A DNA stretch of 64,000 nucleotides from an uncultured Coriobacteriia bacterium (GTDB taxonomy: Bacteria > Actinomycetota > Coriobacteriia > Coriobacteriales > QAMH01), in contig CAUHSG010000003.1 in assembly GCA_959608885.1 (NCBI GenBank), forward strand, positions 66,470-130,469. The letters are read 5' to 3'. The notes under the pieces are model-generated. The model saw nothing but the letters and a program-made list of their open reading frames with translations, had not been told where the DNA came from and did no database searches. The translations under genes and the position numbers were made by a program. This document shows positions 11,473 to 40,862 of the stretch, in pieces; the first letter of the stretch is position 1, and every line of letters begins with the position of its first letter.

Positions 11473-11489
11473 GTTCTCTACCCTTCGTC

Positions 11490-12251: not shown

Positions 12252-12260
12252 CGTGCCCTC

Positions 12261-13421
12261 CTAACGGCTGAGCTGCTGCTGTGCCTCTTTGATGAGCGCG
12301 CGGCCAGCCGTGTGGACCATGATTTCCTCCGTGCCGGCCATGATGCGATAGACGCGTTGGTCTCGCCATAGGCGCGCGATACGACAGTCGTTCGTGTAGC
12401 CTATGCCGCCCATGACCTGCATTGCATCGTCAATGACCTCGAAAGCGGCGTGCCCCGTGTAGCGCTTGAGGAGGGAGGAGTCGATGGAGATCGATTCCCC
12501 GTTATCCTTTTTCCAGGCGGCCTTGTAGAGCATGTTCTGCATGTTCTCGATCTTGATCTTCATGTCGACCAGCTTCTCCTGGATGAGCTGGAACGACCCG
12601 ATTGGCCGCCCGAACTGCTCCCTTTGGCCGGCGTAGCGCAGGGCCTCCTCGTAGGCGCAGCGGGCCATGCCCACGTTTGCCGCGCAGATGGTGAGTCGTT
12701 CGACCTCGAAGTTCTTCATGAGCTGGTAGAAGCCCTTGCACTCCTCGCCCACAAGGTCGCTCTCGTCGCATTCGACGTCTTGCAGATACACCTCGTACGT
12801 GCCGCACATGTTGTTGCCGATCTTGCTTAGCTTCGAGGTCGTGATGCCGGGCCTGTCCATGGGAAACAGATACATGCTGAAGTCCTTGTAGGGACTTTCG
12901 TTAATGCCGCTACGGGCGACGCAGAGCATGTACGGTGCCTTGTCGGCGCTCGTGTTGAACGTCTTGGTGCCGTTGATGTACACCTTGCCATCGCGCTTGG
13001 TGGCGGTCGTTGCCATGGCGGCGCTGTCGGAGCCAGCCTGGGGTTCGGTAAATCCCAGCGTAAACGGCTTCTTGCCCTGCACGGCGTACTCGAGGACCGC
13101 TTTCTGCTGCTCGGGGTTGCCAAACGTCAGAATGTCATCGACCTCGGTGGAGAAGTTGATCCAGCAAAGCGAGGGATAACCGAGCGCATGGGCCTCCTCC
13201 GCCACCATGACCTGGGTGAGAATGTCGACGGGCGTTCCGTCATACTCCTCGGGAATGCCAAGGGAAGCGAAGCCGGCCTCGACCAAAGCATCAGCGGCCT
13301 TCTGGGGGAATACGTGTTTCTCATCGCATTCCTTGAAGTAGTCCTCGAAGTCCCCGCGCTCCATGACCGTACGAAGGCTTTCCAGCAAGAGCTCCTGTTC
13401 CTCTGTCCGCTTGAAGTCCAT
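12261..13421 (-). CDS. Acyl-CoA dehydrogenase family protein, CaiA-like (candidate enoyl-CoA reductase)
   Basis: 386 aa. From memory it aligns with E. coli CaiA end to end (MDFKRTEEQELL.., FQLIQEKLVDMKIKIENMQNMLYKAAWKKDNG versus [32 protein letters not shown]). First gene of the operon. Confidence 0.9.
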   Translation of the reverse strand: MDFKRTEEQELLLESLRTVMERGDFEDYFKECDEKHVFPQKAADALVEAGFASLGIPEEYDGTPVDILTQVMVAEEAHALGYPSLCWINFSTEVDDILTFGNPEQQKAVLEYAVQGKKPFTLGFTEPQAGSDSAAMATTATKRDGKVYINGTKTFNTSADKAPYMLCVARSGINESPYKDFSMYLFPMDRPGITTSKLSKIGNNMCGTYEVYLQDVECDESDLVGEECKGFYQLMKNFEVERLTICAANVGMARCAYEEALRYAGQREQFGRPIGSFQLIQEKLVDMKIKIENMQNMLYKAAWKKDNGESISIDSSLLKRYTGHAAFEVIDDAMQVMGGIGYTNDCRIARLWRDQRVYRIMAGTEEIMVHTAGRALIKEAQQQLSR

Positions 13422-13667
13422 GAGTTAGCACCCTTCCTCTGTAGGCTCTCCCAAAATAAAATTGAGGCGGCAGTCTGGCGGCAGAATTGCTATCCTCCTA
13501 TTGGAGGCAAGAGTCCGCTGCCTCTGCAGCGCATTATATGGACGGGCGGTTTCATTGCCCAAATACGTATATGTGCTGGGCAGTTGTCTGATTTGTTTTC
13601 GAGCCTATACGCCGAGCGGCTGATGGCTTTCACAATCTGCATACTTGTCGCGAAGGGGATTGGGAAG
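13422..13667. promoter_or_regulatory. Divergent promoter/operator region between the cai/fix-like operon and its LysR neighbour
   Basis: 246-nt, comparatively A+T-rich gap between divergent starts. Contains the small palindrome ATACGTAT (13563-13570). No promoter elements confidently assigned. Confidence 0.4.
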
Positions 13668-29517: not shown

Positions 29518-29581
29518 CTCAGGGAATCGGGGGCATGAGGCAATGCGCTTCGTGCCCCCTGGTACACAAGGAGGAAAAGAA

Positions 29582-30805
29582 ATGTCAGCTATGAAGCAAA
29601 TTCCCAAGTGGCGTATGGTCATTGGCATAGCCGCACTGTTCATCTCGAGCATGTGCACGCTGGGCGACATGGTCATCACCCCGATTGCTGCAAATCTCTA
29701 TGAGGTGTTTGCGGATGCGCCCGAGGCGCTTCTCAACTTCGGTATCACGGGCCCGGCACTCGTGGGCCTGCCCTTTGGTCTGCTGGCGGGCTGGCTGTGC
29801 GACCGCTTCGACAAGAAGTGGGTCATGGTCGTGGGCTTCGCCATCTTCACGTTCTCTGCGATCTTTGGCGCGGCCATCGAGAACATCTGGTACTTCGTCA
29901 TCACGCGCTGCCTGGCGACTGGCGTGGGCTGGGGCATCACCAACACCGCTGCGTTCTCCATCCTGGCGGACCTCTTCTCCGATGAGAAGAAGCATAGCCG
30001 CATGGTCGGCTTCTACAACGCGACCATGTCCATCATGGGCGCCATCCTCTCCATGGCAGCTGGCATGCTTGCTGCCTCGGGCGTATGGCAGGATGCCTTC
30101 GCCATCTACTGGATTGCTGCACCTGTGCTCATTCTCATGATCATCTTCCTGCCGTCGCTTAAGCCGACGCCCATGGAGAATGCGGAAGGCAAGGTCGAGA
30201 CGGCTGCCGAGGTCGAGGAAGAGGACAAGGGATGGATTGGCAAGATTATCCCGCTGACCATTCAGGTGTTCTTCTTCGCATTGTTCTTCTTCGTCATGCT
30301 CTACATGGTCGCCCTCTACATTGCAGATGCTGGCGTGGGTGACGAGGCCTTTGCGGGTACGGTTGCCTCGTGCATGACGCTGGCCACCATGGTCGGCTCT
30401 ATCCTGTTCGAGCCGGTCTTCTCCAAGATGAAGAACACCGTTTACATGCCCTTCATGCTCGCTATTGGCGTGATGTTCATCCTCATGGGCTTTGTCGTGA
30501 CGCCGGTCATGACCATTGCCGGCGCCATTGTCATGGGCTTCTCGTGGGCATACTACTTCTGCTACTTCTATGTTCGCGTTACCCAGCTCGTTCCCGAGAA
30601 TCGCGCGGGTTCGGCAACGGGCGTCGTGGCCTTCTCTGATGGCCTTGCGGCAACTCTGTGCTCCTACCTCGTCACGGGCCTCATGGGCGCAACCGGCATG
30701 AACTGCGTCCAGCTCTGGCCGATTTTCGGTGTCGGCACTCTGATTACGCTGGCTATCTCGGTTGTCTACTGGATGCTCACGCGCAAGAAGAGCGTTCAGC
30801 AGTAG
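29582..30805 (+). CDS. MFS transporter (paralogue 1)
   Basis: ORF trimmed to ATG 29582 behind AAGGAGG. 407 aa, ~12 helices, MFS loop WLCDRFDKKW. Confidence 0.85.
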   Translation: MSAMKQIPKWRMVIGIAALFISSMCTLGDMVITPIAANLYEVFADAPEALLNFGITGPALVGLPFGLLAGWLCDRFDKKWVMVVGFAIFTFSAIFGAAIENIWYFVITRCLATGVGWGITNTAAFSILADLFSDEKKHSRMVGFYNATMSIMGAILSMAAGMLAASGVWQDAFAIYWIAAPVLILMIIFLPSLKPTPMENAEGKVETAAEVEEEDKGWIGKIIPLTIQVFFFALFFFVMLYMVALYIADAGVGDEAFAGTVASCMTLATMVGSILFEPVFSKMKNTVYMPFMLAIGVMFILMGFVVTPVMTIAGAIVMGFSWAYYFCYFYVRVTQLVPENRAGSATGVVAFSDGLAATLCSYLVTGLMGATGMNCVQLWPIFGVGTLITLAISVVYWMLTRKKSVQQ

Positions 30806-30943: not shown

Positions 30944-32164
30944 ATGGCACGTGATGCTCGCATGTCATCATGGCGCATGCTTATCGCGATGGCGGCTCTG
31001 TTCGTCTCGAGCATGTGCACGATGGGTGACTTGGTGATTACGCCCAGCGCCGCTGATCTATACGTTGCGTTTGCGGATGCGCCCGAGGCGCTCATCAACT
31101 TCGGCATCACGGGCCCGGCTTTAGTGGGATTGCCATTTAGCCTGCTGGCGGGCTGGCTGTGCGACCGCTTCGACAAGAAGTGGATCATGGTCGCGGGCTT
31201 CGCCATCTTCACGTTTTCCGCGATTTTCGGTGCGGCCATCGAGAACATCTGGTACTTCGTCATCACGCGCTGCCTGGCAACCGGCATGGGCTGGGGCATC
31301 ACCAACACCGCGGCGTTCTCCATCCTGGCGGACCTCTTCTCCGACGAGAAGCAGCACGGTCGCATGGTCGGCTTCTACAACGCGGCCATGTCCATCATGG
31401 GTGCCGTGTTGTCATCCGTTGCCGGGGTGCTCGCGTCCTATGGCATCTGGCAGAACGCATTTTCGATCTACTGGATTGCCGCTCCCACGCTCGTGTTGCT
31501 CATCGTCTTCCTGCCCTCCATGAAGCCCAAGCTCATGCGTGGAGCCGATGGGCACGTCGAGACCACAGAGGAGATCAAAGCCGAGGACAAGGGCTGGTGG
31601 AAGAGCATCCTGCCGCTTAATGCCCAGGTGCTCCTGGTTGCCGTATGCTATTTCGTGCAGCTTTACATGATCTCGCTGTTCGTCGCTGATACGGGCTTGG
31701 GAGACGAGAGCTTCAGCGGCTTGCTTGCCTCATGCATGACTATGGCGTCCTGTCTGGGCTCGCTTGCATTTGGTCCCTTGTTCGCAAAGATGAGGAATGC
31801 GGTCTACTTCCCGTTCCTCATCATCATCGGACTGTGCTTCATCGTTATGGGCTGCTTCGTGGGACAGACGACGGCAGTCTTCTGCTCCCTGCTCTTCGGC
31901 TTCTCTTGGGCGTTCTACTTCTGTTACTTCTACGTGCGCGCCGCAGAGCTTGTTCCCGAGAACCGCAAGGGTGCCTCGACAGGGGTAATTGCGTTTTCTG
32001 TTGGCCTCGCCGCCTTTCTCTGCTCGTACCTCATCACGGGTCTCATGAATGTAACGCATCTGGGCTGCGCCGCGCTTTGGCCCTGCTTTGGCGCGGTGGT
32101 CATCATCGTGTGCGCCGTCTCGATGCTTTATTTCTTCACGAAGCGAAGCAGAAGGTCTTGCTAG
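30944..32164 (+). CDS. MFS transporter (paralogue 2, tandem duplicate)
   Basis: 406 aa. GAGGAGG RBS at 30931-30937. N-terminal half nearly identical to paralogue 1, C-terminal half diverged. Confidence 0.85.
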   Translation: MARDARMSSWRMLIAMAALFVSSMCTMGDLVITPSAADLYVAFADAPEALINFGITGPALVGLPFSLLAGWLCDRFDKKWIMVAGFAIFTFSAIFGAAIENIWYFVITRCLATGMGWGITNTAAFSILADLFSDEKQHGRMVGFYNAAMSIMGAVLSSVAGVLASYGIWQNAFSIYWIAAPTLVLLIVFLPSMKPKLMRGADGHVETTEEIKAEDKGWWKSILPLNAQVLLVAVCYFVQLYMISLFVADTGLGDESFSGLLASCMTMASCLGSLAFGPLFAKMRNAVYFPFLIIIGLCFIVMGCFVGQTTAVFCSLLFGFSWAFYFCYFYVRAAELVPENRKGASTGVIAFSVGLAAFLCSYLITGLMNVTHLGCAALWPCFGAVVIIVCAVSMLYFFTKRSRRSC

Positions 32165-32244: not shown

Positions 32245-32577
32245 CTAGGCGCTCAGGGGATGGGGGAGCATGCCAGCTGATTTAAGGTCTTCGTCAACAA
32301 GGCCACGTAGGTAGTCAGAACGTGATACGCCAAGGTCCTCGGCGCGCTTGTCCATGAGCTCAACTATGGTGACTGGCTCCTTGAAACCGACGAGCTGCAG
32401 GTCGTCGGCGAACTTGGGAGGTCGTCCTGGTTTTTTGACAGAAATTGGGCTATCGGGAATATCGCCCTGAGCGTATATTTCCTCACGTTCGGCAAGCTGC
32501 TCGCGTGTTAGGTCAAAGCGCTCCTCCATCTCCTCATCCGAGACAGGTTCAAGGTTAATTATTTGGATTAAGCTCAT
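32245..32577 (-). CDS. Ribbon-helix-helix antitoxin, BrnA-like
   Basis: 110 aa. GRPPK motif followed by a C-terminal RHH-like segment VTIVELMDKRAEDLGVSRSDYLRGLV. Lies 24 nt downstream of a small toxin-like ORF. Confidence 0.6.
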   Translation of the reverse strand: MSLIQIINLEPVSDEEMEERFDLTREQLAEREEIYAQGDIPDSPISVKKPGRPPKFADDLQLVGFKEPVTIVELMDKRAEDLGVSRSDYLRGLVDEDLKSAGMLPHPLSA

Positions 32578-32601
32578 CTAGCACCCTTCTAGTGGGAGGT
32601 C

Positions 32602-32811
32602 TCATCGCATGAAAATAACAATGCCTTCCCAGTCTTCAGCAGCGACCATTTGCATGGGGCGCCCCTTCATGTCAGGGCCAATTGCCACAATCTCACCTTC
32701 GTGCAGTGCTGTCCGCCGGCGCATTGCCATGGGATTGGTCCAGGCATGAACAATATCCTCCTTGGCTATTCCATGCTTCAGGGCATGGTCATGAATCTTG
32801 AGGCTAATCAT
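32602..32811 (-). CDS. BrnT-like small toxin (possibly C-terminally short)
   Basis: 69 aa. KHGIAKEDIVHAW and IGPDMKGRPMQMVA..GIVIF resemble the BrnT pattern (KHGVsFEEA ... iG...gR.l.vv....irIIsAR), but the ORF stops where BrnT usually continues. Confidence 0.45.
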   Translation of the reverse strand: MISLKIHDHALKHGIAKEDIVHAWTNPMAMRRRTALHEGEIVAIGPDMKGRPMQMVAAEDWEGIVIFMR

Positions 32812-32850: not shown

Positions 32851-33171
32851 TTACCTGAAGCTCAATGGCATATGCATGCCTGCTGTGGTCCACGGGGTAT
32901 CTGCGCTTGGTCTCTCAAGGGCTGCGTACGCATGTCTGCACACGAGTAGGCGTCCTGGCACCACGTCCCGTTCGGCGCGCATGACCGCCCCGTGCTTGTC
33001 GACGAAGGCGACGTCTATTGGGTAGCACATGCCAAACGTGTGCACGCTCTTGCACGGGGCTATCACGAGGATGGCTTCTCCGTCGCCCCAGTTGTGCGAG
33101 GATCCCAAAAGCCCACGGGCTCTGGCGCCAAAGCCCAGGGCGAAGACGAAGCGCATGCTCTCGCCGTTCAT
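32851..33171 (-). CDS. DUF192 domain protein, last gene of the Tad operon
   Basis: ORF trimmed to ATG 33171, which overlaps the upstream stop as ATGA (33168-33171). Core ...LVIAPCKSVHTFGMCYPIDVAFVDKHGAV... is DUF192-like. Confidence 0.7.
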   Translation of the reverse strand: MNGESMRFVFALGFGARARGLLGSSHNWGDGEAILVIAPCKSVHTFGMCYPIDVAFVDKHGAVMRAERDVVPGRLLVCRHAYAALERPSADTPWTTAGMHMPLSFR

Positions 33172-33599
33172 AGGAGTTCTCCCGGCGTATAGGGGTCTAT
33201 GGACAACGTGCATTCGTGGGTAATCATGCTCGGTGCGCTAGCAAGCGAAAGGGGCCACGGGACAAAGCCAAGGATGCAGCGATAGGTAACCATGCTCGCA
33301 AGCAGTGCCCCGGTGTCCTCGCAGGTGACGGCCACTTCCGATCCGCGCCTCGCAAACTCGATTTCGAGGGCCCCCTCGATGGCGTACAAGCGCGATTCAT
33401 GGTCGTGTTCTCCGGTTGGGGGCGATGCGCCTTCGGCGATGACGACCTGGGCTGCAATGTGGTCGAAGCGCGCACACTCCCCTGCGAAGACGAGCATGTC
33501 GATGGCGATGACGAGGACGAGCAGGATGACGGGCGTCACCACCGCGAGCTCGACGGCCATCTGCCCGCGCTCGAAGCGCGTGGGAGCTTCCTGCCACAT
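33168..33599 (-). CDS. TadE-like pseudopilin/pilus assembly protein
   Basis: ORF trimmed to ATG 33599 (MWQEAPTRFERGQMAVELAVVTPVILLVLVIAID). ERGQ-x-AVE plus a hydrophobic helix is the TadE/TadF N-terminal signature. Confidence 0.7.
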   Translation of the reverse strand: MWQEAPTRFERGQMAVELAVVTPVILLVLVIAIDMLVFAGECARFDHIAAQVVIAEGASPPTGEHDHESRLYAIEGALEIEFARRGSEVAVTCEDTGALLASMVTYRCILGFVPWPLSLASAPSMITHECTLSIDPYTPGELL

Positions 33600-33603
33600 G
33601 ACG

Positions 33604-35700
33604 TCAGCCTCCCAGACTTGCGCCAAAGCGTCCGAGCACGTCTTCGAGCCTGGCGTCGATGTCGTCGGGAACCGGCAGGTACAGCGACCCATCACCGGTG
33701 CCGAGCCCAATGTCGGCAAGGGGGATCCGGGCAATCTCCAGACCATGCTCGTCCAGGAACTCGCCAATCTCGGGTACGCTCTCGATGTCGGCCACGAGGG
33801 CATCCAAGTCCCTCATACTGATGGCCCCGTACATTTGCGCACCGAGCTTGAGCCTGCCAATCACGTCTGCAGCCGCGCCCCCGCCACGTTCGAGCACGTA
33901 TGACGTGTTGACGAGCACGGGCTTGTAGCTATCGAGGTCGGCGGGCTCTATCCCCGCGGTGGCAAGCGCCGTCTCGAACGTGGACACCGCGGCATCCGAA
34001 AGCGTGGTACCCACGACCGGTATGGCGCCAAGGGTCTTGCGAAAGCCCGACTTCAGCCCCTCGCTGCCATCGACGTACGCCTTGAGCACGCTGCCCCAGG
34101 CGCCAAAGACGGTCTTGACGGGGCCCGACAGCAGGCTCTCTGATGGAACGAGCCCTTGCGCGACATCGGCGATGACATTGCCGGCATCGTCCGCGGCATC
34201 CGGGGCCAGCGTCGCCGCCGACATGGCGATGCGTGCGGGAACAGCCGCCTCGTCATGGAGAAAGGGGACGCCTTGCACGGAGCTGCCGGGGGCCACGACG
34301 ACGCAGATGCACCCATAGCGCCCCGGCGGCTGCGGGTCGTATCGCTTGCCGGCCAGCGATCGCGCCGCATCGGAAAGCAGCGATCCGATCTCCTCGCGTT
34401 CGGCGTCAAGCTCCTGTCTGGCGGCCTGCCCGTCTTCAATGGCCTGAGCATAGTCGCGTGATGCCTCCACGAGCGCAAGGTAGTGATACTCGAACCCGTT
34501 GCTGATGGAGGTCGATGCGCTGGGTACGCGGCCAAGCGTCGTCGCGGAAAACCTGCACGTGGGGCAGCTCTGGCATGCACCCGAATCGATGTCGCAGACC
34601 GCCGCACTGCCAGAAGGCGAGCCGGCGGCGTATTCCGGGCAGCCGGTCCAGGCGTGCAGCGTACGGGTCTCGCCATTGATGGACGTGGGGTATATGCAGT
34701 CCGTGTACAACGAGGTTTCCCTGATCTGCGCAGTGTTGCGAGCGAGCTGGACGAGGTGGGGGACTTCAGATCCCGAGGCGCTTGTCTCGATGCGACCGCT
34801 CGAGACCTGGTTGAGCGCGTATGCGTAGAACTGCTTGCGGGCGATTGACTCGCCCACGCGCTCGGGCGATCCCGATGCGTATGCGCCCGGCTCGCTTGCA
34901 TACCGTGCCTGGTAGTAGGCGACTGCCCGGTTGAGGGCGACGGAGAAGCTCCAGTTGTCCGGTGACGAGAAGTATGGGTTCTTCGCGCCGGAGATGCTCG
35001 AGAGCTTTGCCGCGCGCTCGAACATGCTCATGCCCTCGTTGCCGCAATCCGCCTGCCAGGCTCGTTTTCGCGCCGCGTCCTCGCGCTGCTGCGCTTCCTG
35101 CTGGGCAACGCTTGCCTGCTGCACGCTCTCCTCTTTCGACTCGATTTCATGTGCCGCCTGCCGTGCCTGCGAGTCGTCGGGAATGGATATGTCGATTCCC
35201 TCGATGGGCACGGTGATGGCAGCGCCTGCATAGGGGATGCCGCTTGCATCGGCATTTGCCTGGATGACCTGGCCGCTGCGAAGCGCGCAGAGGGCGGGTA
35301 GTGCCTTCTGGGCGGCGTCGAGCCCACGTATGGCGGAGTCGACAAACCGGTCGCGTGTTTCGAAGACCTTCGATCCCACGTGCGCGATTTCGGCGGCGGC
35401 TCCCTGGGCTCCGGGAATGAACGCCGTGACGGCAGAGACGGCATAGACCGTGAGTCCCAGCAGCGACAGGGACAATGCGCTTGCGTCAACTACCTGACCG
35501 GCCGTCACGAATTCGGCGATAACGCCATCGGCTGCGAGGGCCCCGGCGTCGGCGACGTACTGGATCTGTCCCGATCGCGAGCCGATTGCGATGCCTCGCG
35601 TGCACGCGAGCACAAGCGCCAAGGCCACGAGGACGGCCAATGCGGCTGCAGGGGTGGTAAACCCACCCTCATGGCGCATGAAGGCTCTGCCCCACTTCAT
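33604..35700 (-). CDS. Large TadG-like Tad-associated membrane protein (~698 aa)
   Basis: ORF 33604..35871 trimmed to ATG 35700, an ATGA overlap with the upstream stop (ATG 35706 also possible). N-terminal HEGGFTTPAAALAVLVALALVLA resembles the TadE/G-like pilus-assembly N-terminus. The rest has no recognisable domain. Confidence 0.7.
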   Translation of the reverse strand: MKWGRAFMRHEGGFTTPAAALAVLVALALVLACTRGIAIGSRSGQIQYVADAGALAADGVIAEFVTAGQVVDASALSLSLLGLTVYAVSAVTAFIPGAQGAAAEIAHVGSKVFETRDRFVDSAIRGLDAAQKALPALCALRSGQVIQANADASGIPYAGAAITVPIEGIDISIPDDSQARQAAHEIESKEESVQQASVAQQEAQQREDAARKRAWQADCGNEGMSMFERAAKLSSISGAKNPYFSSPDNWSFSVALNRAVAYYQARYASEPGAYASGSPERVGESIARKQFYAYALNQVSSGRIETSASGSEVPHLVQLARNTAQIRETSLYTDCIYPTSINGETRTLHAWTGCPEYAAGSPSGSAAVCDIDSGACQSCPTCRFSATTLGRVPSASTSISNGFEYHYLALVEASRDYAQAIEDGQAARQELDAEREEIGSLLSDAARSLAGKRYDPQPPGRYGCICVVVAPGSSVQGVPFLHDEAAVPARIAMSAATLAPDAADDAGNVIADVAQGLVPSESLLSGPVKTVFGAWGSVLKAYVDGSEGLKSGFRKTLGAIPVVGTTLSDAAVSTFETALATAGIEPADLDSYKPVLVNTSYVLERGGGAAADVIGRLKLGAQMYGAISMRDLDALVADIESVPEIGEFLDEHGLEIARIPLADIGLGTGDGSLYLPVPDDIDARLEDVLGRFGASLGG

Positions 35701-36167
35701 TTCCATGCTCCAATCCACGATGCGGGCGCATAGTCGCTGCGGGCCCACTCGGGCACTGATGCGCAGCTCGCCTCGACGCGCTGCTCGATGGCTCCGTTTT
35801 CGTCGATGTCGTTCGCGAGGCCCGCGACGATGCCAAAGAGGGGCAGCGGTTCGACATGGTTGACGATGCACATGCTCGCAGCCCCGCCCTGTTCGCTCGA
35901 CCAGGTGATGTTCCAGTCTTCGTCCATGTGGAAGACTGCCACCTTGGGTATGGCGTCAAGCCTGCGTTCCACAAACGCCCGCACCGACGTCTCGTCACTC
36001 GTGTTCGTCGCCAGCAGGCGGCAGCCCTCCGCGGCCGCCGCATTCATGATGCAGCGGTCGTAGAGGAGCAGCGCCGGTTGCAGGAGCAGGCCAAAGAGGG
36101 CAAACAGCACCGGGAGCAGCACGGCCGCCTCGATGGTCGACTGACCCGATTCAGAAGAGAAGCGCAT
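35697..36167 (-). CDS. TadE-like pseudopilin/pilus assembly protein
   Basis: ORF trimmed to ATG 36167 behind GGAGGGGTGG. MRFSSESGQSTIEAAVLLPVLFALFGLLLQP is a TadE-type N-terminus. Confidence 0.75.
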   Translation of the reverse strand: MRFSSESGQSTIEAAVLLPVLFALFGLLLQPALLLYDRCIMNAAAAEGCRLLATNTSDETSVRAFVERRLDAIPKVAVFHMDEDWNITWSSEQGGAASMCIVNHVEPLPLFGIVAGLANDIDENGAIEQRVEASCASVPEWARSDYAPASWIGAWK

Positions 36168-36351
36168 CGACCACCCCTCCCGCCGTTGTGAGTGCGTGCG
36201 AGGCGCCCGCCTGTACCAGGTCGGTGACGTCGCCATTTGCGACAAAGTGCCACAAGGCCGCGAACGCGCCCATGAGTGCAATGAGCACGAGCCCCACGAG
36301 CAGGTACTCGACCGACGCCTGTCCGGCTTCCCACCTTCTCGTATACCTCAC
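36151..36351 (-). CDS. Second Flp-type prepilin-like small protein
   Basis: 66 aa. EAG-QASVEY-LLVGLVLIALMGAF fits the Flp G/XXXXEY processing motif plus a hydrophobic helix. GTG start overlaps the flp stop (GTGA, 36348-36351). Confidence 0.55.
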   Translation of the reverse strand: MRYTRRWEAGQASVEYLLVGLVLIALMGAFAALWHFVANGDVTDLVQAGASHALTTAGGVVDALLF

Positions 36352-36554
36352 AGCCCGTTTACTCCGCTCGAAATGGCCTCCCAGAGCTCGCTGATCTTGC
36401 CCCTGAACGCTGCGATGGCGATCATCGCGATGACGGCCAGCACGCCGACGAGGATGGCGTATTCGGTCGTCCCCTGACCTTCCTCGCGCAGGCAGTGCAG
36501 CCTCGTCGTGGCCCTGACGTATGCACCGATCATCTTGTCCTTGAGTTTTTGCAT
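36348..36554 (-). CDS. flp: Flp-family type IVb pilin
   Basis: 68 aa. Leader followed by G-QGTTEY-AILVGVLAVIAMIAIAAF (G/XXXXEY motif). AAGGAG RBS. Confidence 0.8.
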   Translation of the reverse strand: MQKLKDKMIGAYVRATTRLHCLREEGQGTTEYAILVGVLAVIAMIAIAAFRGKISELWEAISSGVNGL

Positions 36555-36573: not shown

Positions 36574-37317
36574 TCAAAAGCCTGTCTGGACAAATTGGAG
36601 AAGCACCGGCCCCATGACCAGGATGAGCATGGCGGGCAGGATGCATGTTCCCGTGGGTACGAGCAGCTTGACGGGCGCCTTGGCTATCCGACGTTCGATG
36701 GCGCCGCGCCGCTGCCTGCGAACATCGCATGAGAAGCGAGCGAGCATGTCGGCAAGAGGCGATCCGTAGTGAATGGCCTGAATCGACGTATCGGCGAAGC
36801 GCTTCAGCGCCCTTGATTTCGTGCGCGCGAAGAGCGACTCAAGTGCTTGCTGGCGCGAGGCAAGACCACTGCTCCACTCCAGGCGCGCGCCTGCAAGCTG
36901 GTGCGCCAGCACGTTGTCGAACTTGTCGCAATAGAGGTCCAGCGCGGCGTCGAAGGATAGCCCCGAGCGGATGCCCATGGCGACGATGTCTGCCATCACG
37001 TCGACCTGCTCATCGCAGGCGCTACGCAGCTCGCGGGCTGCCCGGGCGTCGAGCATGGCGGGGGCCTTGCGGGTAAGCAGGTAGGCGGTGGGCATGCCTG
37101 CGACGAGCATCCAGGGGGTCGTTGCAAACGAGATGACGAGCGCCGCAGCGCAGAACACGAGAAAGCAGAGCGACTTGTCGCGCAGGATGTCCTCGACGTC
37201 GAGTTGCCCGTGCCTTGGTGCCGCGAATGCGAGACGCGTCGTCATCAGGCAAGCGCACCGCCATGCGCACGCGCAGGCAAGGATGCAGGCGAGCAGGCGC
37301 AATGCAGCTGGAATCAT
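36574..37317 (-). CDS. tadC: TadC-like type II secretion system F-family membrane protein
   Basis: ORF trimmed to ATG 37317, one nt after the tadB stop. T2SSF-like cytoplasmic domain (GIRSGLSFDAALDL...) flanked by TM helices. Confidence 0.8.
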   Translation of the reverse strand: MIPAALRLLACILACACAWRCACLMTTRLAFAAPRHGQLDVEDILRDKSLCFLVFCAAALVISFATTPWMLVAGMPTAYLLTRKAPAMLDARAARELRSACDEQVDVMADIVAMGIRSGLSFDAALDLYCDKFDNVLAHQLAGARLEWSSGLASRQQALESLFARTKSRALKRFADTSIQAIHYGSPLADMLARFSCDVRRQRRGAIERRIAKAPVKLLVPTGTCILPAMLILVMGPVLLQFVQTGF

Positions 37318-37318
37318 G

Positions 37319-38095
37319 TCAGACCGCCTCCTCGAGGTCGACCGAGAAGTCGACGGCAAGGGCCCTGCGCACGAGCACGATGCCCGCCGCCTCAAACAGG
37401 AGCGCGAGGACGAAGAGGCACACGCCGAGCGGGGAGCTCAGAAACCCCGTGAGGTATCCGGGCGAGAAGACGGACAGTATCGCCAACAGCGCAAACGGCA
37501 TGATGGTCACGATGCGGCTCGAAAGGCGTCCCTGTGCCGTCTTGGTGCGCAAGTCATCCTTGAGCTCGGCAGTCTGCTGGAGCAGGCCCGCCACGCTTTC
37601 GAGTATGTCGGTCAGGCTGCCGCCTGACTGGTGCTGGATCTCCATCGCGACGGCGAGGTAGGCGAACTCGGATCCTCCCGTACGCTGCCGCAGCTTTTCC
37701 AGTGCCTCGTCGAAGCCCTGGCCGGCCTCGAGATCCCACACCGTGCGCTTGAGCTCGCCAGCGAGCGGCTCGCTGCAGTTGTCTGCGGCATAGCGCAATG
37801 CCATGACAAGTGACGATCCACTCTCCAGCGCCGTGCATAGCAGGCGCAGCACCTCGGGCATCCCCTGTTCCAGGGCCTCGACGCGCTTTCTATGCCGGTA
37901 TCCGCCAAGCATCCTCGAGATGGGCGTGCTTGCCAGCATCCTGCCGTAAACGCGCTCGAGGGCGCGCCTTCCCGACGAGCGCAGGATCGATCGGCTGAGG
38001 TGGACGTGATCCAAAACCAGAAGACAAGATCGGTACATTCCATAGGCCGTTGTCACGAGTGCCCCAAGCAGGAGGGCTGCACTGATTGCACCCAT
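37319..38095 (-). CDS. tadB: TadB-like type II secretion system F-family membrane protein
   Basis: ORF trimmed to ATG 38095 behind GGAGGAGGTG. T2SSF-like core (LESGSSLVMALRYAA...GQGFDEALEKL...). Confidence 0.8.
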   Translation of the reverse strand: MGAISAALLLGALVTTAYGMYRSCLLVLDHVHLSRSILRSSGRRALERVYGRMLASTPISRMLGGYRHRKRVEALEQGMPEVLRLLCTALESGSSLVMALRYAADNCSEPLAGELKRTVWDLEAGQGFDEALEKLRQRTGGSEFAYLAVAMEIQHQSGGSLTDILESVAGLLQQTAELKDDLRTKTAQGRLSSRIVTIMPFALLAILSVFSPGYLTGFLSSPLGVCLFVLALLFEAAGIVLVRRALAVDFSVDLEEAV

Positions 38096-39417
38096 TGCTC
38101 CACCTCCTCCTGCGTGGCGATGCCCATGTAGGGAAGGTCGTAAACCCAGGCGGGAACGAGACCCCATTCGTAGTGGCGGTTGCGCCTGTTCCAGCTGACG
38201 GTGGGAACAAAGCCCCCTTGGGATGCGCCGCCTTCTTCGGCATCGAGTTCGCGTCTGCCCTCGTTGCGCATGGCGATCTGCGTGATGCGTCGCATGCCGC
38301 CGGCCAGGCGGTCCTGTTGCACGATGAGGTCGAGTGCCGATGCGATCTGCTCTCTAATGATCTGAGTGGGCAGGTCCATGCCGTAGCGCACCATCATGAC
38401 AAGACGGGGTATGGCCTCGGCGGGCGAGTTGGCATGCAGCGTCGTCATCGAGCCATCGTGGCCGGTGTTCATGGCCTGGAGCATGTCGAGGGCCTCCGCG
38501 CCGCGGCATTCGCCCACGATGATGCGGTCGGGACGCATGCGCAGGGCATTCGTGACGAGGTCGCGTATGGTTACGGCGCCACGCCCCTCGGCATTTGCCA
38601 GGCGCGCCTCCAGGCGTATGACATGCGGGTGCTGGTCGAACCTGAGCTCGGCGCTGTCCTCGATCGTTATGATGCGCTCGGCGTGGGGGATGAGTCGCGA
38701 AAGCGCATTGAGAAGGGTTGTCTTGCCCCCACCTGTGCCCCCAGACACGGCGATGTTCTTGCGTGCGCGTACGGCCCAGGCAAGCAGGCGCTCCATTTCG
38801 GGGGAGAGCGCATCCATGTCCACCAGCTCGTCGAGCGTGAAGGATTGGGTTCGAAACTTCCTGATGGTGACTGACGTCCCGTCGATCGAAAGGGGCGGGA
38901 TGACGACGTTGACGCGATGTCCCTCTGGCAGACGCGCGTTTACCAGTGGGCTCTGCTCGTCGACGCGACGTCCCAATGGGGACACGATGCGATCGACGAC
39001 GAGCCGTAGCTGCTCCTCGGAATCGTAGCGCTCCGCGCTACGATAGACGCTGCCCCTGCGTTCGAAGAAGATCGCATCGGGGCCGTTGACCATTATCTCG
39101 GTGATCTCGTCGTCCTTGAGCATCTTTTCGATGGGACCCAGGCCCAGGACCATGTCAAGGGTGTGCTCGACGAGCGCGTCGCGCTCTTGCCCGGTCATGT
39201 GTCCAAAGCCATGCACGCTCAGGAGCTGGTCGATCGTGGCGGCCAGCTCGCGTCGCGCGACCTCGCGCCCCCTGGCGAGCAGCTGGGCGATGCGCTCGCT
39301 CGGGATTTCCCCGTAGAGCAGATCCCGCAGGCGCGCATGCTCCCTTTCGTATCCTGCACCCATTGCATCGGTGGAGTCGGCAACCTGGGTCTTCGTTATG
39401 TAGTCACCGAGCTTCAT
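38053..39417 (-). CDS. tadA: CpaF/TadA-family pilus assembly ATPase
   Basis: 454 aa. EIMVNGPD, Walker A SGGTGGGKTTLLNAL, Asp/His boxes (IIVGECRG, GHDGSMTTLHAN). Confidence 0.92.
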   Translation of the reverse strand: MKLGDYITKTQVADSTDAMGAGYEREHARLRDLLYGEIPSERIAQLLARGREVARRELAATIDQLLSVHGFGHMTGQERDALVEHTLDMVLGLGPIEKMLKDDEITEIMVNGPDAIFFERRGSVYRSAERYDSEEQLRLVVDRIVSPLGRRVDEQSPLVNARLPEGHRVNVVIPPLSIDGTSVTIRKFRTQSFTLDELVDMDALSPEMERLLAWAVRARKNIAVSGGTGGGKTTLLNALSRLIPHAERIITIEDSAELRFDQHPHVIRLEARLANAEGRGAVTIRDLVTNALRMRPDRIIVGECRGAEALDMLQAMNTGHDGSMTTLHANSPAEAIPRLVMMVRYGMDLPTQIIREQIASALDLIVQQDRLAGGMRRITQIAMRNEGRRELDAEEGGASQGGFVPTVSWNRRNRHYEWGLVPAWVYDLPYMGIATQEEVEQWVQSVQPSCLGHS

Positions 39418-40202
39418 GAGAAGAGCCTCCGTCTTTTTTGCGGCGTGGGGGCAAACTCGATGCCGATGCGCGGGAGCAGGCAGCTCAGCATCCTCTGGAT
39501 ATCCGGTATGGGGGCGGCCTCGCCCTCGACGAGCTCCTCGATGCGGCCGGCTTCCACCAGTGCCCCGACGCCGCCCTTGCCATCGGCAAGGGCGAAGAGC
39601 TCGTCTGCGTCAAGGGAGACGCGTGCATGCTCGAACTCGCTTCTGGGCAAGTTCGAGGACCGGTTGAGCACGTAGGCGATGCGCGCTGTGGGAATGCCGA
39701 TCCTCTGGCAGAGCTCGCCTGCCTTGATCGCCCCGTAGACCGACGAGCGCCGATGGTCCATCAGGATGATCACGAGGTCGGATGACACGAGGAGTGCCCC
39801 GGTGAGACCCGACCAGTACTGGCCGGTATCCGCAATGACGAGGTCGTAGCGATTGCGCACGTGATCCATGAGTTCGACCACGGCATCGGCGACCTCCTCT
39901 GCCACCTCGGGCAACACGGGTGCCTTGAAAAGGTCGAGTTTGGCCGAGATGGGGACGGGGTTGCATGCGGTGCCTTGCGCCAGGTTGGAAAGCGCGACGT
40001 CGAGCCCCAGCCAATAGCCCATGTCCCCAAACTGCAGGTCGCCTTCGAGAATCGCCGTCCTGATCGACTGGCGTGCCACGAGATGCCCTGCGAGAAGCGC
40101 CAGCGTGCTCTTGCCCGTGCCCCCGCTTGCCGACACCAGGGTGACGAGTGGCGCCTGGTTGCACGTGGCCGAATACGCCCGCTTGTCCACGGTGCCCATC
40201 AT
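39414..40202 (-). CDS. TadZ/CpaE-like ParA/MinD-family ATPase
   Basis: 262 aa. Deviant Walker A SASGGTGKSTLA. ATGA overlap with tadA (39414-39417). Confidence 0.8.
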   Translation of the reverse strand: MMGTVDKRAYSATCNQAPLVTLVSASGGTGKSTLALLAGHLVARQSIRTAILEGDLQFGDMGYWLGLDVALSNLAQGTACNPVPISAKLDLFKAPVLPEVAEEVADAVVELMDHVRNRYDLVIADTGQYWSGLTGALLVSSDLVIILMDHRRSSVYGAIKAGELCQRIGIPTARIAYVLNRSSNLPRSEFEHARVSLDADELFALADGKGGVGALVEAGRIEELVEGEAAPIPDIQRMLSCLLPRIGIEFAPTPQKRRRLFS

Positions 40203-40862
40203 CTAGCTCACCTGATTTGCGGCGCTGTTGCCGGGCAAGACGAAGTGGATGGTCCCACGCGCCGAGGCGGATATGAGCTCGCTCACGCTCGAGGGCGTCA
40301 CGGCGAGCGTCACCCACGAGATCTGCTTGTCTCCCGCATCGTCGGGCGTGCTCGTCTCGAGCACGAGTATGCGCTCGCCGATCATCGTGATTTCGCCCGA
40401 TGCAGCTTCGACGTAGACGTCGACGACCGAGCCCGCCCGTATGGCGCCTCCCACGGCAAGCACGTCATCGGAGGCAACGCTTGCGGCGGCAAGCCCGTCG
40501 GGTACCGTGATCCTGGATGATCCGTCACCCACGCGCTCGAGCAAGATGGGCTCGTTCACGCGAATCTCGCTCTGGGCGACGAGCCCTTCGAGTTGCTCGT
40601 GGCTCTGGGCGGCCTGGCCCTGCGGCAGGAAGTCGACGAGCCATTCCTGCACGGTTGCGTTCGACTCGTCGACGGTGCCCCCGATGGGGATTGTCTTGGT
40701 CGCGACGAGCACGGGGACACGTTCGCCCCCGTATTGCTGGATGGCGGCCGCGCGTGCCATGGATGCCTCGGATTTGATGGTCGCCGTATAGGCAAAAACG
40801 CACAATGCCGCCAGCACTCCGCAGCAGATCGCGATTGCCGTTTGCTTTCGTTGTCTCGTCAT
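40203..40862 (-). CDS. cpaB: CpaB/RcpC-like Flp pilus assembly protein (SAF domain)
   Basis: 219 aa. N-terminal TM anchor, then a SAF-like segment (VPVLVATKTIPIGGTV) and RcpC-like C-terminus. First gene of the operon. Confidence 0.85.
   Translation of the reverse strand: MTRQRKQTAIAICCGVLAALCVFAYTATIKSEASMARAAAIQQYGGERVPVLVATKTIPIGGTVDESNATVQEWLVDFLPQGQAAQSHEQLEGLVAQSEIRVNEPILLERVGDGSSRITVPDGLAAASVASDDVLAVGGAIRAGSVVDVYVEAASGEITMIGERILVLETSTPDDAGDKQISWVTLAVTPSSVSELISASARGTIHFVLPGNSAANQVS

What the first reader, a model, noticed from the sequence alone, without database searches (positions are those of the whole stretch)
33604..35700. ~700-aa TadG-like protein with no recognisable adhesin domain and a Cys-rich patch
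Only the first ~40 aa (GGFTTPAAALAVLVALALVLA) look like a TadE/G pilus-assembly N-terminus. The rest contains three further features. There is a second hydrophobic segment. There is a Gln/Glu/Ala-rich probable coiled coil (QQASVAQQEAQQREDAARKRAWQ). There is also a cysteine cluster (CPEY...CDIDSGACQSCPTCRF) that could bind metal or form disulfides, followed by a long Ala/Gly/Asp-rich C-terminal region. I did not spot a vWA MIDAS motif, which many TadG proteins carry. It may be a lineage-specific pilus tip or anchor protein.
Basis: partly seen in the sequence, partly recalled or inferred. Interest (0 to 1): 0.55.

Follow-up and report, generated by a model that had tools for sequence, protein, structure and literature searches.

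The report
Novel TadG-like pilus tip protein
This gene encodes a conserved, unannotated 698-residue protein found only in Coriobacteriia (gut Actinobacteria); it is most likely the large tip or priming subunit of their Tad adhesion pilus, and it carries a helical stalk and a cysteine/histidine-rich head where related proteins carry a vWA adhesin domain.

Summary
A single minus-strand gene (33604-35700, 698 aa) sits in a complete monoderm Tad operon: CpaB-TadZ-TadA-TadB-TadC-Flp-66aa pilin-TadE-TARGET-TadE2-DUF192. It matches no Pfam, NCBIfam or PDB sequence, and Foldseek finds no fold match, so there is no vWA, MIDAS or Ig domain.

It belongs to a compact family of about 490 clusters at 50% identity. 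All are about 700 aa, all are from Coriobacteriia, and every source that names one calls it hypothetical. The gene order is the same in all 80 loci examined.

- **Leader:** it shares Glu(-3)-x-Gly(-1) with the four small pilins of the operon, but position +5 is Gly/Ala instead of Glu. GspK/PilK/CpaL-type tip subunits are similar in this respect.
- **TadG link:** 12 of 44 family members weakly match the TadG N-terminal domain PF13400, one above Pfam's threshold. The target itself does not match.
- **Architecture (AF2 pLDDT 86, plus covariation):** a 79-residue alpha1 helix, a sheet assembled from distant segments, and an antiparallel coiled-coil stalk carrying a conserved head. The head has invariant C219, H349, C354, C379 and C382 and an Arg/Tyr/Trp cluster.
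- **Second hydrophobic segment:** it is real, but it packs against a charged helix, so it is a buried core helix and not a transmembrane span.

Best reading: a TadG/CpaL-class modular minor pilin with a new payload. This is a new variant of a known kind, and its function has not been tested.

The parts
33604..35700 (-). Whole CDS of the 698-aa TadG-like protein, including the stop codon at 33604-33606
   Evidence: ORF listing and translation. ATGA start/stop overlap with the upstream gene and GGAG 7 nt upstream. Identical 698-aa public gene call. Full-length homologues.
35662..35700 (-). Leader peptide, residues 1-13 (MKWGRAFMRHEGG). It ends in Glu(-3)-x-Gly(-1), the putative prepilin-peptidase site G13|F14.
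   Evidence: G13 is invariant and position 11 is E or D in all 44 sequences. The E-x-G motif is present in all four small pilins of this window and in three of the four in Gordonibacter, the Flp there being A-K-G. The invariant Gly(-1) and the +1 to +6 profiles were tabulated across the 80 loci.
35521..35664 (-). Residues 13-60: hydrophobic alpha1N followed by SGQIQYVADAGALAA. This is the region that corresponds to the TadG-type N-terminal domain PF13400.
   Evidence: PF13400 is matched by 12 of 44 family members. P0111 scores 22.6 bits (cut-off 22.3), P0122 scores 21.3 bits. The target itself gives no hit.
35413..35493 (-). Residues 70-96: the conserved second hydrophobic segment (D72...IP96), which is the distal part of the 79-residue alpha1 helix.
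   Evidence: Hydropathy. AF2 predicts one continuous helix 15-93. An antiparallel covariation ladder links it to the charged helix 99-128, and it also covaries with positions 449-456 and 587.
35242..35406 (-). Residues 99-153: amphipathic return helix H2, which forms a hairpin with alpha1.
   Evidence: AF2 secondary structure. Covarying pairs 93-102, 86-109, 82-113, 75-120 and 74-128.
35041..35172 (-). Residues 177-220: stalk helix H3 (the Gln/Glu/Ala-rich 'coiled coil'), ending in the invariant D218-C219-G220.
   Evidence: AF2 helix 177-220. An antiparallel covariation ladder links it to H4: 217-409, 214-413, 210-413, 196-430, 193-435.
34495..35040 (-). Residues 221-402: alpha/beta head domain. 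It contains invariant R229, W250, R258, Y262, Y263, R266, E270, R288, H349, C354, C379 and C382 (the Cys/His cluster).
   Evidence: Alignment invariants. pLDDT is about 82-96. It is the most conserved region of the protein. Foldseek finds no PDB or BFVD analogue.
34351..34494 (-). Residues 403-450: stalk helix H4 (begins with GFEY), which returns from the head.
   Evidence: AF2. Covariation with H3 and with alpha1 (68-456, 82-449).
34186..34350 (-). Residues 451-505: the conserved R-x4-PPGRYG motif and beta-strands 463-500, which form the base sheet.
   Evidence: Invariants R453, P458, G460 and G463. AF2 strands. Covarying pairs 53-466, 159-467 and 470-490.
33901..33942 (-). Residues 587-600: the conserved YKPVLVNT strand, which joins the base sheet next to alpha1.
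   Evidence: The strongest covariation in the protein: 495-602 (3.5), 495-599, 499-595, 501-594 and 465-603. Also alpha1 positions 43-69 with 587-592. AF2 predicts strand 592-597.
33607..33900 (-). Residues 601-698: the variable C-terminal alpha/beta domain.
   Evidence: Highest column entropy of any region, 2.72 bits. Predicted folded, block pLDDT 59-89.
35697..36167 (-). Upstream TadE-like minor pilin (G|QSTIE).
   Evidence: Pfam PF07811, E=1e-9. Public gene call. Syntenic in 77 of 80 loci.
33168..33599 (-). Downstream second TadE/TadF-like minor pilin, 143 aa (G|QMAVE).
   Evidence: Weak PF07811 match. GGAGG lies 8 nt before its ATG. Syntenic in 75 of 80 loci.
36151..36554 (-). Flp-type major pilin candidate (68 aa, G|QGTTEY) and a second 66-aa pilin (G|QASVEY).
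   Evidence: Translations. Weak class III signal and TadE matches. Synteny.
36574..40862 (-). Tad machinery genes: TadC, TadB, TadA/CpaF ATPase, TadZ-like ParA and CpaB/RcpC.
   Evidence: Pfam T2SSF twice, T2SSE (E=2e-63), AAA_31/CbiA, and RcpC+SAF. Public gene calls.

Best explanation
The gene encodes the Coriobacteriia counterpart of TadG/CpaL. That class is the large, modular minor pilin that joins the two small TadE/TadF-type minor pilins flanking it to form the complex that primes assembly of the Tad (type IVc) pilus and then stays at its tip.

**Proposed mechanism**
1. The protein inserts into the membrane through its N-terminal class-III-type signal, with the leader in the cytoplasm and the bulk of the protein outside. 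This step is inferred from the leader and from family-level homology to the TadG N-terminal domain.
2. The prepilin peptidase probably cuts after Gly13. This step is inferred from the leader motif shared with the other pilins.
3. The protein lacks the Glu5 present in all four small pilins of the operon, so it would be the first, top-most subunit, like GspK/PilK/CpaL. This step is inferred by analogy.
4. Its base is a pilin-like unit. The long alpha1 helix packs against a sheet built from strands 158-164, 463-500 and the late strand 592-597. AF2 secondary structure and covariation indicate this, but it was not checked in 3D.
5. An antiparallel coiled-coil stalk (177-220 paired with 403-450) rises from the base. 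It holds a conserved head of about 180 residues, probably stabilised by a Zn site or disulfides, away from the fibre tip. This head takes the place of the vWA domain of classical TadG. It would be the binding or sensing surface; its ligand is unknown.
For: **Genomic context**
- The gene lies in a complete Tad operon, between two TadE-like genes, with translational coupling.
- The order CpaB-TadZ-TadA-TadB-TadC-Flp-TadE-TARGET-TadE2-DUF192 is kept in essentially all 80 Coriobacteriia loci.

**N-terminus**
- The leader motif E(-3)-x-G(-1) is shared with the small pilins: all four in this window and three of four in Gordonibacter.
- Position +5 is Gly/Ala in the target family but Glu in the small pilins.
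- PF13400 (TadG N-terminus) is matched by 12 of 44 members, one of them above Pfam's gathering threshold.

**Structure**
- The AF2 model is confident (pLDDT 86, pTM 0.72) and shows a continuous helix 15-93, stalk helices and sheet strands.
- Covariation computed on 295 sequences, independently of the AF2 model, supports the alpha1/H2 hairpin, the H3/H4 antiparallel stalk, the pairing of strands 490-500 and 592-597, and packing of alpha1 43-69 against 587-592.

**Literature**
- TadG/CpaL is a large minor-pilin-like tip protein. It is a PilK/GspK analogue whose late beta-strand completes its own pilin module, and its middle payload is dispensable for assembly (PMC13533445; bioRxiv 10.1101/2025.02.12.637803).
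- TadG-type subunits form the backbone of tips with modular C-terminal domains, and in Myxococcus the large subunit gene (mxan_4659, KilN4) carries the locus tag between those of the two small ones (mxan_4658, mxan_4660) (PMC12075869).
Against: - The target sequence itself does not reach any PF13400 threshold.
- The fold after alpha1 is helical, not the canonical pilin beta-domain. Foldseek finds no pilin, GspK or vWA match.
- No model coordinates were available, so the pilin-like base rests only on secondary structure plus noisy covariation (effective sequence number 233).
- Some mid-ranked covarying pairs (27-480, 16-64, 43-78) do not fit a straight alpha1 helix.
- The strand that completes the sheet is internal (592-597), not at the extreme C-terminus as in CpaL.
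- The most conserved part is the head, which is unusual for an exposed adhesin.
- No prepilin peptidase gene lies within the 64-kb window.
- There are no experimental data for any family member.
Confidence: 0.6

Rival explanations
1. The protein is a membrane-anchored assembly or anchoring factor that never enters the fibre. It would be a bitopic protein held by an uncleaved N-terminal helix. Its extracellular stalk and head would guide or anchor the pilus through the thick monoderm wall, taking the role of the alignment or secretin-associated parts that monoderms lack.
For: - Operon membership is the same.
- Phe at +1 and the absence of Glu5 could equally mean that the protein is not a peptidase substrate or fibre subunit.
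- The head and base are strongly conserved while only the C-terminus varies. That pattern fits an internal machine part better than an exposed adhesin.
- TadG was long listed as a Tad-specific protein of unknown function and described as a cytoplasmic-membrane component (PMC6916266).
Against: - The invariant Gly13 and the E-x-G leader motif shared with the cleaved pilins argue for processing.
- Recent work places TadG/CpaL in the tip complex and reports TadG in fibre preparations (bioRxiv 10.1101/2025.02.12.637803; PMC13533445).
- The gene sits inside the minor-pilin block, not with tadB/tadC/tadZ.
Confidence: 0.2
2. The protein is a tip subunit that also carries a membrane-active device. The transmembrane-grade hydrophobic helix (residues 70-96; in distant members up to about 45 hydrophobic residues spanning both arms of the hairpin) would be kept buried inside amphipathic helices, as in colicin- or ClyA-type pore formers. 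On contact it would be released to insert into a target membrane.
For: - The segment's hydropathy reaches 2.9 and passes the cut-off in 43 of 44 members, with invariant D72 and near-invariant P96 bracketing 23 apolar residues.
- Covariation links it to many different segments, as expected for a sequestered core helix.
- The only Foldseek neighbours are long helical bundles, ClyA among them, but all are non-significant.
- Tad pili can mediate contact-dependent killing in Myxococcus (PMC12075869).
Against: - No hit to any pore-forming family is significant.
- A fully buried central helix in a multi-helix bundle explains the hydrophobicity without any membrane role.
- Coriobacteriia are not known predators.
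- Nothing in the locus suggests a toxin or immunity pair.
Confidence: 0.07
3. The protein is a polytopic membrane protein with two transmembrane helices (15-38 and 72-96) and a large cytoplasmic Zn-binding domain that regulates or scaffolds the Tad motor.
For: - Two segments pass the classical hydropathy cut-off.
- Four invariant Cys plus one His look like a cytoplasmic-type Zn site.
Against: - AF2 predicts one uninterrupted helix 15-93. It is about 118 Å long (1.5 Å per residue), so both segments cannot sit in one bilayer.
- Residues 70-96 covary in an antiparallel ladder with helix 99-128, which carries about nine charged or ionisable residues, and with positions 449-456 and 587 of the soluble part.
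- N-terminal homology to TadG-type proteins implies the bulk of the protein is outside.
Confidence: 0.04
4. The protein is an ordinary vWA-type TadG, or the ORF is an artefact that joins two genes.
For: None beyond position in the operon. The 900-936-aa 'long' homologues are fusions, but they fuse the target ORF to the downstream TadE2 ORF.
Against: - There is no vWA or MIDAS signal by Pfam, NCBIfam, PDB sequence search, Foldseek or motif search.
- More than 250 clusters align end to end at about 700 aa.
- AF2 is confident across the whole chain.
Confidence: 0.01

Closest known systems
TadG (Aggregatibacter actinomycetemcomitans) / CpaL (Caulobacter crescentus): the large minor-pilin-like tip protein of Tad (type IVc) pili
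   Same: [quoted passage not shown]
- Its N-terminal hydrophobic helix plus the LQxAADAAALAA-type region correspond to PF13400, at family level here.
- It has a prepilin-like leader with Gly at -1 and lacks the residue that registers the other pilins (Glu5/Tyr6).
- A strand from late in the chain appears to complete the base sheet.
- A payload is inserted between the parts of the base module.
   Different: - There is no vWA domain and no MIDAS motif. The payload is a helical hairpin, an antiparallel coiled-coil stalk and a conserved Cys/His/Arg-rich head with no detectable structural relative.
- The completing strand (592-597) is followed by a further 100-residue variable domain, rather than being the extreme C-terminus.
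- The alpha1 helix is 79 residues long and has a second, fully apolar stretch.
- The host is a monoderm.
- The target sequence itself is below all PF13400 thresholds.
KilN (Myxococcus xanthus Kil/Tad tips)
   Same: - The locus tag of the large subunit gene lies between those of the two small minor-pilin genes (kilL-kilN-kilM; here TadE-target-TadE2).
- It is described as the backbone of a tip complex with a modular C-terminal domain (PMC12075869).
   Different: - KilN is described as having a pilin-like beta-stranded globular domain, and it exists in several interchangeable paralogous sets.
- Only one copy of the target was seen per locus here, and it is mostly helical.
- No sequence similarity to KilN was detected.
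GspK / PilK (PilX) tip minor pilins of T2SS and type IVa pili
   Same: - It is the largest minor pilin and lacks Glu5.
- It is expected to cap the filament and to nucleate assembly with two smaller partners (GspI/GspJ-like).
- The target's G|F-T-T start resembles the classical GFTLIE prepilin motif without the Glu.
   Different: - There is no sequence or Foldseek similarity.
- It belongs to a different filament class (Tad).
- It is far larger and has a stalk-and-head payload.
Modular minor pilins PilB (vWA) and PilC (lectin) of Streptococcus sanguinis type IVa pili
   Same: The concept is the same: a monoderm pilin module with a grafted functional domain displayed at the pilus tip.
   Different: The pilus class differs (IVa versus Tad), the grafted folds differ, and those pilins keep Glu5 (from my own knowledge, not tested here).

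Membership tests
TadG/CpaL-class large Tad minor pilin | N-terminal TadE/G-like domain (Pfam PF13400) | tested here: inconclusive
   The target gives no hit even at E<=10. 12 of 44 family members match weakly. P0111 reaches 22.6 bits against a cut-off of 22.3 over profile positions 4-44 of 47; P0122 reaches 21.3 bits.
TadG/CpaL-class large Tad minor pilin | Encoded in a tad locus together with tadE/tadF-type minor pilins | tested here: met
   The gene lies directly between two TadE-like genes, downstream of flp and tadZABC. This order is conserved in 75-77 of 80 loci.
TadG/CpaL-class large Tad minor pilin | Prepilin-type leader with Gly at -1, without the Glu5/Tyr6 registering residue | tested here: met
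   G13 is invariant, E/D is at -3, and +5 is Gly or Ala (39 of 44) and never Glu. The four small pilins have G|Q...E at +5. Actual cleavage was not tested.
TadG/CpaL-class large Tad minor pilin | Pilin-like module (alpha1 packed on a beta-sheet) completed by a late beta-strand of the same chain | tested here: inconclusive
   AF2 secondary structure shows helix 15-93 and strands 158-164, 463-500 and 592-597. Covarying pairs are 495-602/599, 499-595, 53-466, 159-467 and alpha1 43-69 with 587-592. No coordinates were available and Foldseek found no pilin hit.
TadG/CpaL-class large Tad minor pilin | vWA domain with a MIDAS motif | tested here: not met
   There is no vWA match in Pfam or NCBIfam, none in PDB sequence or fold searches, and no D-x-[ST]-x-[ST] motif anywhere in the protein.
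TadG/CpaL-class large Tad minor pilin | Present in or at the tip of the fibre and needed for normal piliation | not testable with these tools
   This needs genetics, microscopy or proteomics in a cultivable Coriobacteriia strain.
Canonical type IV pilin / pseudopilin (class III signal, N-methylation motif GFTLIE) | Gly(-1), a hydrophobic +1 residue and Glu at +5 | tested here: not met
   The sequence is G|F-T-T-P-A. Position +5 is Ala in the target and Gly, Ala, Ser or Thr across the family. No N_methyl hit was reported.
WXG100 / ESAT-6-like helical hairpin | Significant profile match over a hairpin of about 100 residues with a central W-x-G | tested here: not met
   There are only sub-threshold matches: PDB 4i0x at E=0.05 over residues 513-577, and Pfam WXG100 at E>=0.14 in 3 of 44 members. 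W535 is nearly invariant, but this is treated as a local resemblance only.
Structural Zn site (zinc-ribbon-like H-x4-C ... C-x2-C) | Four ligands within bonding geometry; metal present | not testable with these tools
   C219, H349, C354, C379 and C382 are invariant. Pair 354-382 is among the top covarying pairs. No coordinates or metal analysis were available.

The most novel reading that the evidence does not exclude
The stalk-and-head payload would be a new class of pilus-tip effector module. There are two versions. In the first, the head is a Zn- or redox-dependent receptor-binding or enzymatic domain that recognises one conserved host, mucus or cell-wall ligand; that would explain why it is the most conserved part of the protein. 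In the second, the sequestered transmembrane-grade hydrophobic hairpin is a releasable membrane-insertion element. In that case the Tad pilus of gut Coriobacteriia would be a contact-dependent device acting on membranes and not only an adhesive fibre.
Probability: 0.1. Interest if true: 0.8.

Novelty: new variant of a known kind. Interest (0 to 1): 0.5.

Why it matters
- **Ecology:** Tad pili are host-colonisation factors in gut Actinobacteria; in Bifidobacterium breve they are required for colonisation (PMC6916266). Coriobacteriia such as Eggerthella, Gordonibacter, Slackia and Adlercreutzia are prevalent gut bacteria that metabolise drugs and polyphenols (from my own knowledge), and full-text searches found nothing on how they attach.
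- **What this adds:** the family seems to be a constant part of their Tad operon and has no annotation. It is the obvious candidate for the part of the pilus that touches the outside world.
- **For the type IV filament field:** it would extend the 'large tip pilin with exchangeable payload' idea (TadG/CpaL/KilN) to monoderm Tad systems with a non-vWA payload. It would also provide a natural case in which the strand that completes the sheet is internal rather than C-terminal.
- **For annotation:** it defines a clean family of about 490 clusters at 50% identity that merits its own profile.

Tried and rejected
- **Family and sequence searches.** Pfam, NCBIfam and PDB sequence searches with both the single sequence and the family profile gave nothing beyond weak PF13400 and WXG100-like signals.
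- **DUF6510.** Five of 44 members gave weak hits. I could not locate the hits in the 30 members scanned individually, so I dropped this lead.
- **Long homologues.** I hoped the 900-936-aa homologues would reveal an extracellular-type extra domain. They are read-through fusions with the downstream TadE2 ORF.
- **Papain/NlpC-P60-like Cys-His enzyme.** I considered this because of the DCG and LHA motifs. I rejected it because Foldseek finds none of these abundant folds and the Cys is not at a helix N-terminus.
- **Second transmembrane helix.** Rejected on AF2 geometry and covariation.
- **Full-length covariation.** It was redone in two overlapping blocks.
- **Prepilin peptidase.** A tblastn search of the window with the Gordonibacter TadV-like sequence found nothing.
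- **Literature.** Searches for Tad pili in Coriobacteriia or Eggerthella found nothing relevant.
Full report
**1. What is at the coordinates.**
The feature is a minus-strand ORF. The longest frame runs 33604-35871. Its ATG overlaps the TGA of the upstream gene (ATGA), and GGAG lies 7 nt upstream. An independent public gene call on an identical metagenomic contig gives the same 698-aa product. Five bases after the stop codon, a GGAGG-preceded ATG opens the next gene.

**2. Genomic setting.**
Pfam assigns the neighbouring minus-strand genes as follows:
- CpaB/RcpC (40203-40862)
- a TadZ-like ParA ATPase (39414-40202)
- TadA/CpaF (38053-39417; T2SSE, E=2e-63)
- TadB and TadC (two T2SSF proteins)
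- a 68-aa Flp-like pilin
- a 66-aa second pilin
- a TadE protein (E=1e-9)
- the target
- a second, weaker TadE-like protein
- a DUF192 protein

This is a complete monoderm Tad (type IVc) pilus operon, and the target lies inside its minor-pilin block.

**3. The family.**
- A word-indexed search found at least 360 homologues. The 120 best listed are mostly about 680-750 aa, and none carries a Pfam domain in the region shared with the target (the one exception, PF07083 in P0084, is a 611-aa partial match). The only names given are 'hypothetical protein'.
- An exhaustive profile search of 1.84 billion representatives found 492 clusters at E<=1e-3 and 256 at E<=1e-30. This is a compact family with no large tail of vWA-type TadG proteins.
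- A scan of one genome per species found 104 relatives. The 80 kept are essentially all Coriobacteriia: Eggerthellaceae, Slackia, Gordonibacter, Adlercreutzia, Paraeggerthella, Senegalimassilia, Cryptobacterium and Lancefieldella. A few come from bins with non-Coriobacteriia labels, probably mis-binned, and a few from bins with only broad labels such as 'Actinomycetes bacterium'.
- tblastn with the window's eleven operon proteins shows the same gene order in practically every locus. TadE lies upstream in 77 of 80 loci, TadE2 downstream in 75 of 80, and DUF192 in 70 of 80.
- The ORF is therefore one real, conserved gene and a constant part of this lineage's Tad operon.
- The 900-936-aa 'long' members are read-through fusions with the downstream TadE2 ORF, not extra domains.

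**4. What it does not match.**
- There is no Pfam or NCBIfam hit for the target, even at E<=10.
- There is no significant PDB sequence match with either the sequence or the profile. The best is an ESAT-6-like hairpin at E=0.05.
- There is no D-x-[ST]-x-[ST] motif.
- The AF2 model is confident (mean pLDDT 86, pTM 0.72). Foldseek finds nothing at E<0.35 in PDB or BFVD, only generic long helical bundles.

**5. The N-terminus.**
At family level the region from about residue 13 to 60 is related to Pfam PF13400, the TadE/G-like N-terminal domain. This region is the apolar helix plus SGQIQYVADAGALAA. 12 of 44 aligned members match. P0111 scores 22.6 bits against a curated cut-off of 22.3 and covers profile positions 4-44 of 47. 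P0122 scores 21.3 bits.

The leader is also informative. All four small pilins in the window have E(-3)-x-G(-1)|Q-x-x-x-E(+5); three of the four in Gordonibacter keep the Glu at -3. The Gly(-1), Gln(+1) and Glu(+5) positions hold across loci; for example, +5 is Glu in 72 of 76 TadE and 67 of 73 TadE2 orthologues.

The target family keeps E/D at -3 (44 of 44) and an invariant Gly at -1. It then continues F-T-T-x-G/A, and +5 is never Glu. Lack of the Glu5-type registering residue is the hallmark of the top-most subunit, as in GspK/PilK; that statement is from my own knowledge. The CpaL study makes the same argument for CpaL (bioRxiv 10.1101/2025.02.12.637803).

**6. Architecture.**
AF2 secondary structure gives:
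- one uninterrupted helix 15-93
- a return helix 99-153
- a strand 158-164
- a helix 177-220
- an alpha/beta region 221-402
- a helix 403-450
- strands 463-500
- helices 506-580
- a strand 592-597
- a C-terminal alpha/beta domain

I therefore computed mean-field direct-coupling scores on 295 family sequences (effective number 233). The strongest couplings form coherent ladders:
- 93-102, 86-109, 82-113, 75-120 and 74-128: an antiparallel alpha1/H2 hairpin. There are 11 strong pairs against 3 expected, and the best antidiagonal is i+j=196.
- 217-409, 214-413, 210-413, 196-430 and 193-435: helices 177-220 and 403-450 as an antiparallel coiled-coil stalk.
- 102-190 and 113-179: H2 with H3.
- 68-456 and 82-449: alpha1 with the foot of H4.
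- 495-602 (the top score, 3.5), 495-599, 499-595, 501-594 and 465-603: strand 592-597 pairs with strand 490-500.
- 53-466, 159-467, and alpha1 positions 43-69 with 587-592: the sheet lies on the middle of alpha1.

Taken together, this describes three parts:
- **Base:** it looks pilin-like, with alpha1 on a sheet assembled from three distant chain segments.
- **Stalk:** a coiled coil rises from the base.
- **Head:** the stalk carries residues 221-402.

This is an inference from secondary structure plus covariation, not a verified 3D comparison. Several mid-ranked pairs (27-480, 16-64, 43-78) do not fit it and remain unexplained.

**7. The second hydrophobic segment.**
It passes the transmembrane cut-off in 43 of 44 members, with hydropathy up to 2.9. 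Invariant D72 and near-invariant P96 bracket it. It is nevertheless unlikely to be a membrane span, for three reasons:
- It is the distal part of a continuous 79-residue helix, about 118 Å long at 1.5 Å per residue, so it cannot share a bilayer with residues 15-38.
- Its hairpin partner, helix 99-128, carries about nine charged or ionisable residues.
- It covaries with at least four other soluble segments.

A central, fully buried core helix explains these data.

**8. The Cys patch and the head.**
Only C354, C379 and C382 of the quoted patch are invariant. C219 (in the D-C-G motif that ends the stalk helix) and H349 are also invariant. C369 and C376 are not conserved.

The spacing H-x4-C ... 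C-x2-C, an additional distant Cys, and the strictly anaerobic hosts make a structural Zn site my preferred reading over disulfides. That preference is inference only.

Residues 218-300 are the most conserved stretch of the protein. Thirteen columns there are at least 95% conserved, including D218, R229, W250, R258, Y262, Y263, R266 and R288. The stalk helices and the last 98 residues are the most variable. This pattern suggests a conserved binding or catalytic surface on the head and a diversifying C-terminal domain.

**9. Comparison with what is known.**
Recent work describes TadG/CpaL as a minor-pilin-like protein of about 600 residues. It acts as the PilK/GspK analogue of Tad pili, is important for fibre assembly, and contributes a late beta-strand to its own pilin module. 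Its middle part, a vWA domain plus beta-rich domains, sits atop the tip and is largely dispensable for assembly (PMC13533445; bioRxiv 10.1101/2025.02.12.637803).

In Myxococcus and several pathogens, the large TadG/KilN subunit is the backbone of 'adaptable tips' with modular C-terminal domains. In Myxococcus its gene carries the locus tag between those of the two small minor pilins (PMC12075869).

The target shares with this class:
- its operon position
- the leader logic
- N-terminal homology, at family level
- probably the split-sheet principle

It fails the vWA/MIDAS criterion, and its payload has no detectable relative. I therefore file it as something that works like TadG/CpaL. It is a distant, lineage-specific variant and not a demonstrated family member. 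Monoderm Tad systems were thought to be minimal, with B. breve lacking TadG altogether (PMC6916266). A constant large subunit in Coriobacteriia is therefore a modest addition to that picture. I found no literature on Tad pili in this class.

**10. Rivals.**
- **Non-fibre membrane-anchored assembly factor (0.2).** This fits the strong conservation of the head and the unusual +1/+5 residues. It is weakened by the shared leader motif and the current view of TadG/CpaL.
- **Membrane-inserting tip device using the sequestered hydrophobic hairpin (0.07).** This is the most novel reading the data allow, but nothing supports it directly.
- **Two-transmembrane protein with a cytoplasmic Zn domain (0.04).** This is contradicted by AF2 geometry and covariation.
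- **Ordinary vWA TadG or two fused genes (0.01).** This is refuted.

**11. Verdict.**
The finding is a new variant of a known kind. It is of moderate interest (0.5) because the family is unannotated, restricted to one lineage, apparently universal in that lineage's Tad operon, and structurally unlike known tip modules. Its general role, however, is what current Tad biology would predict for a gene in this position.

Noticed in passing
window 32851-33171 (minus); loci L001-L080: A DUF192 (COG1430) gene follows the minor-pilin block in 70 of 80 Coriobacteriia Tad loci and overlaps the end of TadE2 in the window. Such a constant partner suggests an unrecognised accessory role in this Tad system.
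   Followed up: partly
L036 (Gordonibacter sp. 28C) about 10560-13530: Eggerthellaceae-type loci carry extra genes after TadE2: a membrane-anchored ORF of about 170 aa, DUF192, a small Zn-ribbon ORF (CPICR...CYGC), a TadV-like A24 prepilin peptidase (GRGDVRC motif) and another Flp-like gene. The window's clade lacks these, and tblastn finds no prepilin peptidase anywhere in the 64-kb window.
   Followed up: partly
proteins P0044, P0045, P0046, P0122 (homologues from other contigs): The 900-936-aa 'long' family members examined (P0044, P0046, P0122; P0045 has the same length class) are fusions of the target ORF with the downstream TadE2 ORF, joined by an Arg-rich linker that looks like translated intergenic sequence. 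They are probably read-through or frameshift gene calls.
   Followed up: yes
window 35662-35664 and the pilin genes at 33168-33599 and 35697-36554: The target's mature start, G|F-T-T, resembles the classical type IVa GFTLIE motif without Glu5. The four small pilins of the same operon use G|Q-x-x-x-E. One peptidase would therefore have to accept two leader styles.
   Followed up: partly
target residues 513-577 (window about 33970-34164): A helix-turn-helix with a nearly invariant W535-G536 gives sub-threshold matches to WXG100/ESAT-6-like proteins (PDB 4i0x, E=0.05). It is probably only a local resemblance.
   Followed up: partly
window 32245-32811 (minus): A small gene pair has weak BrnT-toxin and ribbon-helix-helix matches. 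It is a likely type II toxin-antitoxin module immediately downstream of the Tad operon.
   Followed up: no
window 29543-30805 and 30944-32164 (plus): Two tandem, clearly paralogous MFS-type transporter genes of about 400-420 aa have near-identical internal motifs.
   Followed up: no
loci L006, L007, L009, L018, L026, L057, L065: Typical Coriobacteriia Tad loci that include this gene sit in bins labelled Akkermansia, Agathobacter, Bacteroidaceae, Phocaeicola or Subdoligranulum ('cleanbin' assemblies). Mis-binned contigs are more likely than horizontal transfer.
   Followed up: no
target residues 15-81 (covariation matrix): Mid-ranked covarying pairs (27-480, 16-64, 43-78, 15-81, 23-87, and a cluster between residues 15-32 and 64-67) are incompatible with a straight alpha1 helix within one chain. 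They could be noise, subfamily signal, or contacts between subunits.
   Followed up: partly
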